This document shows positions 1 through 5,122 of a stretch of DNA of 61,990 nt, one piece after another. Every line of letters begins with the position of its first letter. Position 1 is the first letter of the stretch. The stretch is from a virus. The DNA is taken from UHGV virus genome UHGV-0106586; one strand, 5' to 3'. A model generated the notes under the pieces. The model was not told the origin of the DNA, did no database searches, and saw nothing but the letters and a program-made list of their open reading frames with translations. A program made the translations under genes and the position numbers.

Positions 1-45
1 TTTTTGAATCTCCAATTTAGGATTTAGTGGTAAAGCTCTTTATCT

Positions 46-86: not shown

Positions 87-470
87 TTATTTGTTAATTT
101 TGAAGATAGTTACATAACCATCGCTGCCGATGATTTGTGATGCTCCAGCTTTTTCTACTTGATAGCCCATATTTTCAAGATGGTAAACAGCATCATCATA
201 ACCATATGCGCCGCCCTGATAACGTCTCTTATCACATCTTACTAATACCTTTCCACGTCCTGCCAGTGCATTTAGTACGGCTTTTTCACTTGAAAGTGTA
301 CCATCTAACATGGTTGCCGTGTAATGGTTGATTCTATTCCCGTTTACATCATACTTAAAATTGAATGCGTGAACAACAATCAATTTGCCGTTAAATTTTT
401 CATCAAGTGACTTCTCCAGTGCGTTGCGAAAGTTGTCTTTATTGATGAATTTAGGTGCACGATAAGCCAT
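87..470 (-). CDS. hypothetical protein (127 aa)
   Basis: ORF with ATG start preceded by AGGAGA RBS (471-483 on minus strand); no motif recognised. Confidence 0.5.
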   Translation of the reverse strand: MAYRAPKFINKDNFRNALEKSLDEKFNGKLIVVHAFNFKYDVNGNRINHYTATMLDGTLSSEKAVLNALAGRGKVLVRCDKRRYQGGAYGYDDAVYHLENMGYQVEKAGASQIIGSDGYVTIFKINK

Positions 471-535: not shown

Positions 536-564
536 ATATTAGATAACCCTAGCCAGAGAGTCAA
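536..564 (-). promoter_or_regulatory. sigma70-like promoter for gene 87..470 (-35 TTGACT, 17-bp spacer, -10 TAATAT, read on minus strand)
   Basis: Hexamers and spacing read directly from the reverse complement of 536-564. Confidence 0.4.
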
Positions 565-740
565 GAAAAATTTTAAAAATATTTTTGCAAAAACTGTAAT
601 GAAACGGGCGCACGCGAATACCACAAAACAGAACTATAATCAAGAATTATTTTTCAATCCGCTACAAATTTTTCTGTTGACTTTTATTTCCAGATGTGGT
701 AGCCTTGTGAGAAATGGCGACATCCCCACCTGCACCCACC

Positions 741-919
741 TACCTGCACAATTCTAAAATGATTTTTCTTGCCCGACCTGAGCGGGGTCTGCACGTTTTG
801 AAAATGAAAAAGCTCTTTGGAGATTACCTGCACAGTTTGAAAATGAATTTTCTCTTTGGAGTTCAAAATTTTCTCTACAGATTTCTCTACAGAACTCTAC
901 CTGCACAATCCTGAAATGA
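741..919. repeat. Three copies of a 22-bp direct repeat (tacctgcaca-N-aaatga) at 741-762, 825-846, 898-919, plus tandem ttctctacag at 871-892
   Basis: Repeats seen directly in the intergenic sequence. Confidence 0.6.
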
Positions 920-992
920 AAAAGCCCCCCTTACCTGAAAAATTTACCAGATAAGAAAGGCTTAGTCTATTGTGAATATTCTACAGAGTTTC

Positions 993-3285: not shown

Positions 3286-3304
3286 TTAACAATCTCCTGA
3301 AATG

Positions 3305-3330
3305 AAAAAGGCTCCCGAAGGAGCCTGTAT
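3305..3330 (-). terminator. rho-independent terminator (ggctcc-cgaa-ggagcc hairpin followed by U-run on minus strand)
   Basis: Perfect 6-bp stem with tetraloop at 3310-3325, A-run on plus strand at 3305-3309. Confidence 0.55.
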
Positions 3331-5034: not shown

Positions 5035-5097
5035 TGGTTCTCCTGTTTAGTTTATCGTGACAACAATTATACAGCACTCTGCACAAAATACAAATAA

Positions 5098-5122
5098 AAA
5101 AGGCCGCCGAAGCAGCCTTTTA
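5098..5122 (-). terminator. hairpin terminator downstream of rIIB
   Basis: aggccgc-cgaa-gcagcct stem-loop with flanking A/T runs. Confidence 0.45.

What the first reader, a model, noticed from the sequence alone, without database searches (positions are those of the whole stretch)
741..919. Three 22-bp direct repeats spaced ~75-85 bp in the intergenic region at the window start
tacctgcaca-N-aaatga recurs at 741, 825 and 898, with additional partial copies (ctgcacgttttgaaaatgaaaaagc at 789-813) and a tandem ttctctacag pair at 871-892. Regularly spaced direct repeats in a ~500-bp non-coding region suggest iterated binding sites (origin iterons, a regulator array or a packaging signal) rather than simple promoters.
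Basis: seen in the sequence. Interest (0 to 1): 0.4.

Follow-up and report, generated by a model that had tools for sequence, protein, structure and literature searches.

The report
Conserved four-repeat array in Felix O1-like phages
The repeats are real: Felix O1-type phages keep a one-per-genome array of four same-direction ~38-bp repeats just after a terminator. It looks like a docking site for an unknown DNA-binding protein, possibly a replication origin, and it appears undescribed.

Summary
The window is a Felixounavirus (Felix O1-like myophage). There are four full copies, not three plus a partial. Each is a ~38-40-nt unit with a bipartite core, TGCAC-N7-AAATGA on the + strand (TCATTT-N7-GTGCA on the gene strand). 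Cores lie at 745-762, 790-807, 829-846 and 902-919, all in one orientation. The core occurs nowhere else in the 62-kb window or in a complete 88-kb relative.

The array starts in the T-tail of a covarying terminator, Felix O1 't13', after the macro-domain gene. It lies 180-390 bp upstream of a strong sigma-70 promoter.

Three to five units sit at this position in Felixounavirus, Mooglevirus/Suspvirus-type phages, Kolesnikvirus (contiguous 37-bp tandem) and one distant lineage. Against Moogle/Susp-type phages, units B and C are more conserved than the flanking gene and every unit beats the spacers.

Rejected:
- packaging signal (the 581-608-bp terminal repeats lie ~6.5 kb away);
- sigma-70 promoters;
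- structured RNA;
- coding sequence;
- the host-factor consensus sites I scanned.

Best reading: iterated sites for one sequence-specific protein, with an iteron-type origin favoured (~0.35) over a transcription-control array (~0.25). The binding protein and the function are inferred, not shown.

The parts
922..963 (-). Intrinsic terminator ending the macro-domain gene operon (Felix O1 terminator 't13'). Its T-tail runs into unit A.
   Evidence: Terminator scan gives a 17-pair stem, loop of 8 and T-rich tail. It is listed as t13, -21.8 kcal/mol, in PMC3185647 Table 2 and annotated as a terminator in AYO145A and ASO1A. The 5' arm changes track the 3' arm changes across lineages: GCCTTCC/GGAAGGC, GGCTGCC/GGCGGCC, GGTCACC/GGTGGCC.
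896..935 (-). Repeat unit A (core 902-919). Its left box is the 3' arm of the terminator.
   Evidence: PWM 47.6 bits; exact core match; conserved in all relatives examined.
870..893 (-). 12-bp tandem pair (TCTGTAGAGAAA x2 on the gene strand) in the A-B spacer. It belongs to a looser second motif, WYTGTAG, that is also seen near 976-989 and 663-676.
   Evidence: TRF period 12, 2.0 copies, 100%; the repeat finder D8 and D11. It is less conserved than the units (spacer identity 0.57-0.94).
823..862 (-). Repeat unit B (core 829-846).
   Evidence: PWM 49.4 bits; exact core. It is absent in BPS17L1, Si3 and VpaE1_ev035, which have three units.
784..823 (-). Repeat unit C (core 790-807).
   Evidence: PWM 43.2 bits; exact core.
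739..778 (-). Repeat unit D (core 745-762).
   Evidence: PWM 43.4 bits. It is nearly identical to unit 3 of Erwinia phage M7: GGTCGGGCAAGAAAAATCATTTTAGAATTGTGCA against GGTCTGGCAAGAAAAATCATTTTCGATTTGTGCA.
684..738 (-). Variable ~55-bp cassette with two unrelated alleles. The window carries the allele that is G-rich on the gene strand and contains a fifth GTGCAGGT fragment at 728-735.
   Evidence: Alignment of 27 distinct relatives; identity to the other allele is only 0.35-0.40.
590..683 (-). Conserved A+T-rich non-coding block that travels with the array, even where the downstream promoter and gene are swapped.
   Evidence: Identity 0.71-0.79 to six of the seven divergent relatives compared; L024 is truncated here. 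GC is 25% at 631-690. In Si3 and L097 the homology break lies after ...GCGCCCGTT.
536..564 (-). Strong sigma-70-type promoter (TTGACT-17-TAATAT) for the first gene of the right-arm cluster of small genes, preceded by an A/T tract at 565-589.
   Evidence: Promoter scan, 9 of 12. A promoter is annotated at the equivalent place in ASO1A. The hexamers are conserved in the alignment.

Best explanation
The four units act as DNA, as a one-per-genome array of same-orientation binding sites for a single sequence-specific protein. That protein is probably phage-encoded.

Each site has two invariant blocks, TCATTT and GTGCA, whose centres are about 12 bp apart, roughly one helical turn. The site is asymmetric. 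That suggests a protein, or a monomer with two reading heads, contacting two successive major grooves on one face of the helix. Iteron-binding initiators do this.

My favoured role is an iteron-type replication origin:
1. The protein loads on the four sites.
2. It opens the A+T-rich block about 60-150 bp further on, which always travels with the array.
3. The phage's own T7-type primase-helicase and PolA-type polymerase then take over.

Shown: the array exists, is unique in the genome, is conserved across genera, and is not a promoter, a structured RNA, a gene or a genome end.

Inferred: that a protein binds it, that the protein is phage-encoded, and that the site fires replication.

I put about 0.65-0.7 on 'protein-binding DNA array' in general and about 0.35 on 'origin' specifically. 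The confidence field refers to the origin reading.
For: Uniqueness:
- The core gives 4 exact matches in 62 kb, all at 745-919.
- The 40-nt PWM gives four hits of 37-49 bits in the window and in the complete 88-kb HMD-P10 genome; the next best is 13 bits.
- A global regulator would be expected at many of the early promoters. An origin is expected once.

Conservation:
- The four GTGCAG positions and their spacing (73/39/45) hold in nearly all of the 27 distinct IMG/VR relatives aligned.
- Moogle/Susp-type phages, whose macro protein is 63-65% identical, keep 73-77/39-41/45.
- Erwinia phage M7 has four contiguous units of period 37-39.
- A distant lineage (L074; proteins 40-58% identical, no blastn similarity) still has five units after its macro gene.
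- Against Moogle/Susp-type phages, units A-C are 0.75-0.87 identical and unit D 0.65-0.88. The macro gene DNA is 0.69-0.71, the A-B spacer 0.57-0.84 and the cassette 0.35-0.40.
- Each copy keeps its own private sequence across genomes, so the copies are not being homogenised.

Architecture:
- The array and the A+T-rich block (25% GC at 631-690) stay together when the downstream promoter and gene module is exchanged.

Alternatives that failed:
- No sigma-70 promoter in the units.
- RNA folding z-scores of -0.14 and +0.66, and no Rfam match.
- Reading frames are not conserved.
- The genome ends lie elsewhere.
- No DnaA, IHF, CRP, Fis, LexA or marbox consensus falls within the repeat units.
- No homolog in plasmids, E. 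coli genomes or GTDB genomes.
Against: - No initiator was found. The neighbouring genes and nine hypothetical proteins of the replication module have no Rep, O or DnaA-like Pfam or PHROG match.
- The array lies more than 20 kb from the polymerase and primase-helicase genes.
- By established knowledge, phages with T7-type replisomes usually start at promoters, not iterons.
- GC skew shows no inflection at the array. Skew here follows transcription, so this is uninformative rather than contrary.
- The spacing (37-77 bp, no constant helical phase) is looser than in classic iteron arrays.
- Natural phages live with 3, 4 or 5 units.
- No experimental replication, footprinting or transcript-mapping data for this region exist in the searched literature.
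Confidence: 0.35

Rival explanations
1. Transcription-control array. A phage or host protein bound to the four sites just past terminator t13 acts in one of three ways. It may be a roadblock or insulator that stops read-through from the long replication/metabolism/lysis operon into the right-arm cluster of small genes. It may be an upstream operator or activator site for the promoters 100-390 bp downstream. It may time the switch between gene classes.
For: The array sits exactly at an operon end. Unit A begins in the terminator's T-tail, and a strong sigma-70 promoter follows. All sites share the orientation of transcription. The phage encodes at least one Cro/CI-type HTH protein. The Felix O1 paper states that temporal control and passage of the many terminators are unexplained.
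Against: The motif occurs only here, although the right and left arms carry many similar early promoters. The array does not overlap any promoter. It is retained when the downstream promoter and gene module is swapped. HTH_3 dimers usually read palindromes, not asymmetric direct repeats (established knowledge). RT-PCR classes in Felix O1 show no clean temporal boundary at gene 13/14.
Confidence: 0.25
2. No dedicated binding protein. The units are decayed tandem duplicates of the terminator's 3' arm, T-tract and downstream flank. They are kept as weak back-up terminators or pause sites, bent A/T-tract DNA, or conserved 'linker' sequence that promotes recombinational swapping of the adjacent variable cassette and early genes.
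For: Units A and C share GGGC/GAGC-TTTTT-CATTT with the terminator tail. In Erwinia phage M7 the terminator tail itself looks like a degenerate unit. A two-allele cassette and three alternative first genes lie just downstream.
Against: Units B-D have no stable hairpin, and the region folds no better than shuffles. The most conserved part, GTGCA, lies about 20 nt past the T-tract, where a terminator has no requirement. Each copy keeps distinct conserved positions across genera, and the core survives in a lineage with no other DNA similarity.
Confidence: 0.1
3. Phage-specific (middle or late) promoters. Each unit would be a tandem promoter read by host RNA polymerase, redirected by an unknown phage factor.
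For: The units are oriented with the genes, and a TA follows GTGCA(G) in most units. How Felix O1 times transcription is unknown.
Against: There is no -35/-10 pair at any allowed spacing. The distance from the core to any TA-nnn-T element differs between genera. A promoter class should recur before other operons, but the motif is unique in 88 kb.
Confidence: 0.07
4. RNA-level element or small gene: a non-coding RNA, an array of RNA protein-binding motifs, or one of the small ORFs annotated across the repeats.
For: The region is largely stop-free on both strands. Pharokka-type annotation calls small CDSs here in D4, and Felix O1 ORF31-34 overlap it.
Against: z-scores are -0.14 and +0.66 and there is no Rfam family. 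Unit spacings of 37, 39, 41, 45, 73 and 75 and 2- and 4-nt indels break every frame between lineages, and different frames are open in different genomes. The array lies behind a strong terminator.
Confidence: 0.05
5. Packaging or terminus signal: terminase binding sites next to the cut site.
For: Repeated sites next to a cut site are typical of cos/pac regions (established knowledge). Several IMG/VR contigs break 30-60 bp from unit D.
Against: The D4 record carries an exact 581-bp terminal repeat about 6.5 kb from the array. UAB_Phi87 has a 608-bp DTR mapped by Bal31 and run-off sequencing. The contig breaks abut Nextera adapter with a 9-bp Tn5 overlap in a C-rich tract, so they are a library or assembly artefact.
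Confidence: 0.03

Closest known systems
Iteron-type replication origins (lambda ori with four 19-bp repeats plus an A+T-rich tract; plasmid F/P1/R6K iterons; T4 oriE with RepEB). Comparison from my own knowledge.
   Same: Three to five asymmetric direct repeats of about 20 bp core, all in one orientation. One locus per genome. An A+T-rich tract sits nearby. The half-sites are about one helical turn apart, as for two-domain Rep monomers.
   Different: No initiator gene is adjacent or identifiable. The repeat period is 37-77 bp rather than about 20-24 bp. The locus is far from the replication genes. Origin activity is untested.
Non-coding origins of virulent lactococcal phages (c2, sk1 and 936-type 'per' origins). 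Comparison from my own knowledge.
   Same: An intergenic, repeat-rich, A+T-rich cis-acting site in a lytic phage, at a boundary between transcription units.
   Different: There is no sequence similarity. Those origins were defined functionally, by plasmid-borne interference or replication, and this one has not been.
Mycobacteriophage 'stoperators' (L5, Bxb1). Comparison from my own knowledge.
   Same: Asymmetric sites, all oriented with transcription, in short non-coding gaps. The bound protein blocks elongating polymerase.
   Different: Stoperators are about 13 bp and scattered at more than 20 places through the genome of temperate phages. Here the four sites are at a single locus of a virulent phage.
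Lambda cosB R-sites and pac-site repeats
   Same: Several short repeats that recruit one protein to one place in the genome.
   Different: The virion ends of Felixounaviruses are about 6.5 kb away, in a separate repeat-rich DTR region.
T5 injection-stop region at the edge of the first-step-transfer DNA. Comparison from my own knowledge.
   Same: A non-coding, repeat-rich tract about 8% of the genome length from one end. It borders a terminal cluster of small early genes driven by strong host-type promoters. In D4 the array is about 7.3-7.5 kb from the right end of 89.4 kb.
   Different: Two-step DNA transfer has never been reported for a contractile-tailed Felix O1-like phage. There is no sequence similarity, and the resemblance is positional only.

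Membership tests
Iteron-type replication origin | Three or more direct repeats of one asymmetric ~17-22-bp site in the same orientation | tested here: met
   Four units with an invariant 18-bp bipartite core, all on one strand; 3-5 units in relatives.
Iteron-type replication origin | Single locus per replicon | tested here: met
   The PWM finds only these four sites in 62 kb and in the complete 88-kb HMD-P10 genome.
Iteron-type replication origin | Adjacent A+T-rich unwinding region | tested here: inconclusive
   GC is 25% at 631-690 and 27% at 541-600, against about 38-40% nearby. The second tract is also the UP region of a promoter, and no unwinding was computed.
Iteron-type replication origin | Cognate initiator protein, usually encoded next to or around the iterons | tested here: not met
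   The neighbours are a macro-domain protein and unknowns. Nine hypothetical proteins of the replication module have no Rep, O or DnaA-like match. An unrecognised initiator cannot be excluded.
Iteron-type replication origin | Supports or initiates replication | not testable with these tools
   Needs marker-frequency analysis, 2D gels or a plasmid assay. GC skew is flat across the site.
Sigma-70 promoter | -35 and -10 hexamers 16-18 bp apart | tested here: not met
   In 471-992 the scan reports only the TTGACT -35 hexamer at 564, paired with TAATAT (17-bp spacer) or AATATT (18-bp spacer). Nothing is reported in 739-935.
Intrinsic terminator | G+C-rich hairpin followed by a T-run | tested here: met
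   Met only for 922-963, with the tail overlapping unit A. Units B-D have no such hairpin.
Packaging (pac/cos/DTR-end) signal | Lies at or next to the ends of virion DNA | tested here: not met
   An exact 581-bp DTR at the ends of PP886228 lies about 6.5 kb away. A 608-bp DTR was mapped experimentally in UAB_Phi87.
Known RNA family / structured ncRNA | Match to a curated covariance model, or folding better than shuffled sequence | tested here: not met
   Best Rfam E-value is 0.81, far below gathering scores. z-scores are -0.14 and +0.66.
CRISPR-like mini-array | Identical repeats separated by unique spacers of similar length | tested here: not met
   In Kolesnikvirus the units are contiguous (period 37-39). 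In Felixounavirus the gaps are 0-34 nt and are conserved, not unique.
Host transcription- or nucleoid-factor site arrays (DnaA, IHF, CRP, Fis, LexA, MarA/SoxS/Rob) | Match to the published consensus (consensus strings recalled from my own knowledge) | tested here: not met
   No consensus match falls within any repeat unit at the mismatch levels used. Counts in 471-992 are close to the window-wide density: 4 DnaA-like against 1.57 expected, 1 IHF-like against 1.03. There are no similar arrays in E. coli genomes or GTDB genomes.

The most novel reading that the evidence does not exclude
The array may be a so-far unknown kind of unique cis-acting genome site for DTR myoviruses. One version is a boundary or 'stop' signal about 8% from the right genome end. 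It would delimit the terminal cluster of small early genes, much as the injection-stop region delimits first-step-transfer DNA in T5. A second version is an origin served by an initiator of a fold not yet recognised, which starts a T7-type replisome without a promoter. Either would give the first defined cis-element of Ounavirinae genome dynamics and a handle to find its binding protein.
Probability: 0.08. Interest if true: 0.7.

Novelty: new member of a known kind. Interest (0 to 1): 0.42.

Why it matters
Felix O1 and its relatives are among the most used diagnostic and biocontrol phages. Hundreds of genomes are sequenced, yet neither their origin of replication nor the way they time transcription is known. 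The Felix O1 genome paper says so explicitly for transcription.

This array is one of the best-conserved non-coding features of the subfamily. It survives where flanking proteins have dropped to 40-58% identity, and it occurs once per genome. It is therefore a concrete, small target of 18-bp cores that makes those questions testable by DNA pull-down, deletion or marker-frequency mapping.

It also matters for annotation. The small ORFs called across it in many records are almost certainly spurious. For phage engineering, this is a site to avoid or to exploit.

Tried and rejected
- Genome end or pac site. I followed IMG/VR contigs that stop 30-60 bp from unit D. The ends abut Nextera adapter with a 9-bp Tn5 overlap in a C-rich tract, and one contig end is an E. 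coli mukB/mukE chimera. The true DTR is elsewhere. Rejected.
- Sigma-70, sigma-E, sigma-54 and extended -10 readings of the units on both strands, by eye and by scan. No consistent hexamers or spacing across genera.
- Structured RNA: Rfam and folding of both strands. Nothing found.
- Coding: the + strand ORF 714-914, the minus-strand ORFs and the small CDSs annotated in D4. Frames are not conserved.
- Host-factor consensus scans for DnaA, IHF, CRP, Fis, LexA, marbox and Chi. Nothing in the units. One 7-of-8 Chi-like GCAGGTGG lies in the variable cassette only.
- OmpR, Fur and ArgR resemblances were recalled from memory, checked by eye and dropped. They do not explain the invariant GTGCA.
- Homologs outside phages: plasmids and E. 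coli genomes gave no match. GTDB genomes gave only chance pattern matches with no PWM support.
- GC skew for an origin signal was flat.
- Search for an initiator or regulator by Pfam and PHROGs found only a 99-aa HTH_3 protein far away.
- Literature: five searches gave no mention of these repeats, of an origin, or of transcript maps for Felixounaviruses. One search was badly framed and useless.
- A first attempt at block-wise identity used a faulty alignment setting. Only its macro-gene figures are usable. The block figures were redone on the MAFFT alignment.

Full report
**What the window is.** Megablast of the first 3 kb finds 252 phage records, nearly all Felix O1-like (Felixounavirus) phages of Escherichia, Salmonella, Shigella and Citrobacter, at 93-95% identity. 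The finding lies in a 522-bp gap (471-992) between two minus-strand genes. Upstream in the direction of transcription is a 261-aa macro-domain protein at 993-1778 (Pfam Macro, E = 1.2e-7), annotated 'phosphatase' in relatives. Downstream is a 127-aa protein of unknown function at 87-470.

**Checking the observation.** The 22-mer is at 741, 825 and 898 with no mismatch. TACCTGCACA occurs only there in the window. The 'partial copy' at 789-813 is a full fourth copy.
- The common core TGCAC-N7-AAATGA has exactly four matches in 61,990 bases on both strands, at 745, 790, 829 and 902. The expectation is 0.08, and none of 100 shuffles reached four.
- The 12-bp tandem pair at 870-893 is real.
- Aligning the copies shows a unit of about 38-40 nt. 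On the gene strand it reads [ACTCCAAAGAG or GGTCGGGCAAG]-[T5 or A4-5]-TCATTTY-N6-GTGCAGGTA.
- A position weight matrix built from 42 distinct units scores the four copies at 43-49 bits. The next best site in the window scores 13 bits. In the complete 88-kb genome of phage HMD-P10 the picture is the same: four hits of 37-48 bits, next best 13.
- So the array is real, has four members, and is unique in the genome.

**Anatomy in the direction of transcription.**
1. The stop codon of the macro gene is at 993.
2. A strong intrinsic terminator lies at 963-922. It is terminator t13 of the Felix O1 paper (PMC3185647, Table 2). It is annotated in AYO145A and ASO1A, and its stem covaries between lineages.
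3. Unit A follows, with its T-run being the terminator's T-tail.
4. A 34-nt spacer carries the 12-bp tandem pair.
5. Units B and C abut each other.
6. A short linker leads to unit D.
7. A ~55-bp cassette exists in two unrelated alleles.
8. A conserved A+T-rich block spans 683-590.
9. A strong sigma-70-type promoter, TTGACT-17-TAATAT, lies at 564-536 behind an A/T tract.
10. A leader hairpin, a Shine-Dalgarno sequence and the ATG at 470 complete the region.

**Position in the genome.** In HMD-P10 the array ends a 29-kb rightward run of replication, nucleotide-metabolism, rII and lysis genes. It precedes 16 small genes that run to the right genome end.

**Conservation.**
- The intergenic region is found in 289 phage records. 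In 28 Erwinia phage records the only matching part is window 745-847, that is units D, C and B.
- In 27 distinct IMG/VR relatives the four GTGCAG positions and the 73/39/45 spacing are kept in nearly all.
- Moogle/Susp-type phages, whose macro protein is 63-65% identical, have 73-77/39-41/45.
- Erwinia phage M7 (Kolesnikvirus) has four contiguous units. TRF reports period 37, 3.7 copies. The core there is TCATTTY-N6-GTGCATAG, and the terminator tail looks like a degenerate extra unit.
- BPS17L1, Si3 and VpaE1_ev035 have three units; B is missing.
- A distant lineage (IMG/VR contig 3300045988_063805, locus L074) shares only 40-58% protein identity in the syntenic lysin, kinase and macro genes and has no detectable DNA similarity. 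It still carries five units directly after its shorter macro gene.
- Measured against Moogle/Susp-type phages, units A-C are 0.75-0.87 identical and unit D 0.65-0.88. The macro gene DNA is 0.69-0.71, the A-B spacer 0.57-0.84 and the cassette 0.35-0.40.
- Each copy keeps its own private sequence from genome to genome. The copies are therefore individually constrained rather than homogenised.
- A two-unit pattern scan finds real arrays only on Ounavirinae-like contigs, in IMG/VR and in metagenomes, confirmed for the newly fetched loci by PWM. It finds none in 185,579 species-representative genomes, where 15 chance matches had no PWM support. There is nothing in plasmids or in 5,426 E. coli genomes.

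**What it is not.**
- *Not the genome end.* Several IMG/VR contigs stop 30-60 bp past unit D, which at first suggested a physical terminus. Those ends abut Nextera adapter sequence with a 9-bp overlap, the Tn5 target duplication, inside a C-rich tract. One contig end is a chimera with E. coli mukB/mukE. The real ends are known. The D4 record has an exact 581-bp terminal repeat about 6.5 kb from the array, and a 608-bp DTR was mapped experimentally in UAB_Phi87 (PMC4837284).
- *Not sigma-70 promoters.* No -35/-10 pair is found in 739-935. Any TA-nnn-T element shifts relative to the core between genera. A promoter class would recur elsewhere in the genome.
- *Not a structured RNA.* Folding z-scores are -0.14 and +0.66 for the two strands, and there is no Rfam match.
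- *Not coding.* Unit spacings of 37, 39, 41, 45, 73 and 75 and 2- and 4-nt indels break every frame. Different frames are open in different genomes. The small ORFs annotated here in Felix O1 and D4 are best treated as spurious.
- *Not a recognisable host-factor array.* Scans for DnaA, IHF, CRP, Fis, LexA and marbox consensus sites (strings from my own knowledge) place nothing in the units.

**Most likely mechanism.** What remains is a DNA-level, sequence-specific, directional, single-locus element with several sites: an array of binding sites for one protein. The core has two invariant blocks, TCATTT and GTGCA, with centres about 12 bp apart. The site is not palindromic. That points to a protein contacting two successive major grooves on one face of the helix. 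By established knowledge, monomeric iteron-binding initiators do this, as do tandem winged-helix regulators and two-HTH monomers.

Two roles fit. I favour an iteron-type origin at about 0.35, for three reasons:
- The site is unique in the genome, whereas a regulator of early genes would be expected at many of the similar early promoters.
- The array always travels with an A+T-rich block (25% GC at 631-690).
- This pair is retained when the downstream promoter and first gene are exchanged.

Against the origin reading:
- No initiator could be found next to the array or in the replication module.
- The replication genes are more than 20 kb away.
- T7-type replisomes normally start at promoters.
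- The repeat period is long and not helically phased.
- GC skew is flat, but it follows transcription here and so is uninformative.

The main rival, at about 0.25, is a transcription-control array at the t13 boundary, acting as a roadblock, insulator or upstream operator. It is supported by the exact overlap of unit A with the terminator tail and by the admitted ignorance of how these phages time transcription. It is weakened by the motif's uniqueness and by its independence from the downstream promoter. Felix O1 RT-PCR classes show no clean temporal boundary at this point. Lesser rivals are decayed terminator duplicates or a recombination linker (0.10), phage-specific promoters (0.07), an RNA element or gene (0.05) and a packaging signal (0.03).

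**Known or new.** Terminator t13 and the downstream promoter are already annotated. The repeat array is not. The Felix O1 paper lists only exact direct repeats of at least 24 bp and does not include these. Five literature searches found no description of the array, of an origin, or of transcript maps for this group. I file it as a new member of a known kind, an iteron-like array of protein-binding direct repeats in a phage intergenic region, with its function unproven. Interest is moderate. It is not a surprise in kind, but it is the clearest handle so far on an unsolved piece of Felix O1 biology.

Noticed in passing
whole window (1-61990); also loci L064+L065 (HMD-P10 complete genome): GATC is completely absent: 0 sites against about 217 expected in the window, and 0 in the 88-kb HMD-P10 genome. 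CGCG, CCGG, GCGC, GGCC, CTAG and TCGA are also strongly depleted, and many 6-bp palindromes have zero sites. The distant array-bearing lineage L074 has 27 GATC in 6.4 kb, so the avoidance is lineage-specific.
   Followed up: partly
window 684-738; loci L017, L018, L040, L043, L049/L061, L070: The ~55-bp cassette after unit D has two unrelated alleles. The other allele is a C-rich tract (...CCCCTCTCCCCCTCTTACTCCCCCTCTCCCC; its complement has four G-runs, G-quadruplex-like). Five IMG/VR contig ends fall in it, three of them abutting Nextera adapter with a 9-bp Tn5 overlap, CTCTTACTC. GenBank LR699048.1 (VpaE1_ev035) carries an adapter relic, CTGTCTCT/AGAGACAG, with the flanking 12 bp duplicated at the same spot. 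That is an assembly artefact in a public record.
   Followed up: partly
L019 (IMGVR_UViG_3300045988_004180), last ~190 nt: After unit C the contig continues into DNA that is 100% identical to E. coli mukB/mukE. This is a phage-host assembly chimera at the contig end.
   Followed up: yes
L062 1-581 and L063 9860-10440 (PP886228, phage D4); L074 560-760: The 581-bp terminal repeat of D4 is packed with short TTAACA / TGTTAA(G) repeats in both orientations. These are candidate terminase or end-binding sites. In the distant lineage L074 a similar cluster of about 12 TTAACA repeats lies immediately downstream of the unit array.
   Followed up: no
window 976-989, 870-893, 663-676: A second, looser repeat family (WWYYTGTAGAG-like) lies after the stop codon, as the 12-bp tandem pair, and in the conserved block. 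In BPS17L1-type phages the equivalent place holds a perfect palindrome, ATCTGTACAGAT. No function has been assigned.
   Followed up: partly
window 87-470 and the equivalent position in relatives: The first gene after the array is one of at least three unrelated alternatives in different phages, with N-termini MAYRAPKF..., MLYSRELMV... and MASRKIKVGD.... In Si3 and L097 the promoter module is swapped as well. This is modular exchange right next to a highly conserved non-coding block.
   Followed up: partly
window 5074-5113 (minus strand) and 3295-3310: Two other terminator tails resemble the start of a unit. GGCGGCCTTTTTTATTTGTATTTTGTGCAGAG follows terminator t2 (13 bits). CTTTTTCATTTCAGGAG follows t5, where the tail simply runs into a Shine-Dalgarno sequence. 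These are probably chance or shared terminator-tail composition.
   Followed up: yes
window 2-13 and 471-482; 1-86: The translation-start context TTTTGAATCTCC (GGAGATTCAAAA-ATG on the gene strand) is repeated before successive small genes. The short gaps between them hold a promoter overlapping a hairpin (TTTACA-17-TAAAGT at 81-53). The Felix O1 paper lists a near-identical sequence as 57-bp direct repeats. This is reminiscent, from my own knowledge, of the promoter-stem-loop cassettes of T4-type phages.
   Followed up: no
window 714-914 (+), 684-866 (-), 754-906 (-); L063 2927-3294; L004 1495-1816: Small ORFs across the repeats are annotated as CDSs in Felix O1 (ORF31-34) and D4 (three 'hypothetical proteins'). 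Frames are not conserved between lineages, so these are very likely annotation artefacts.
   Followed up: yes
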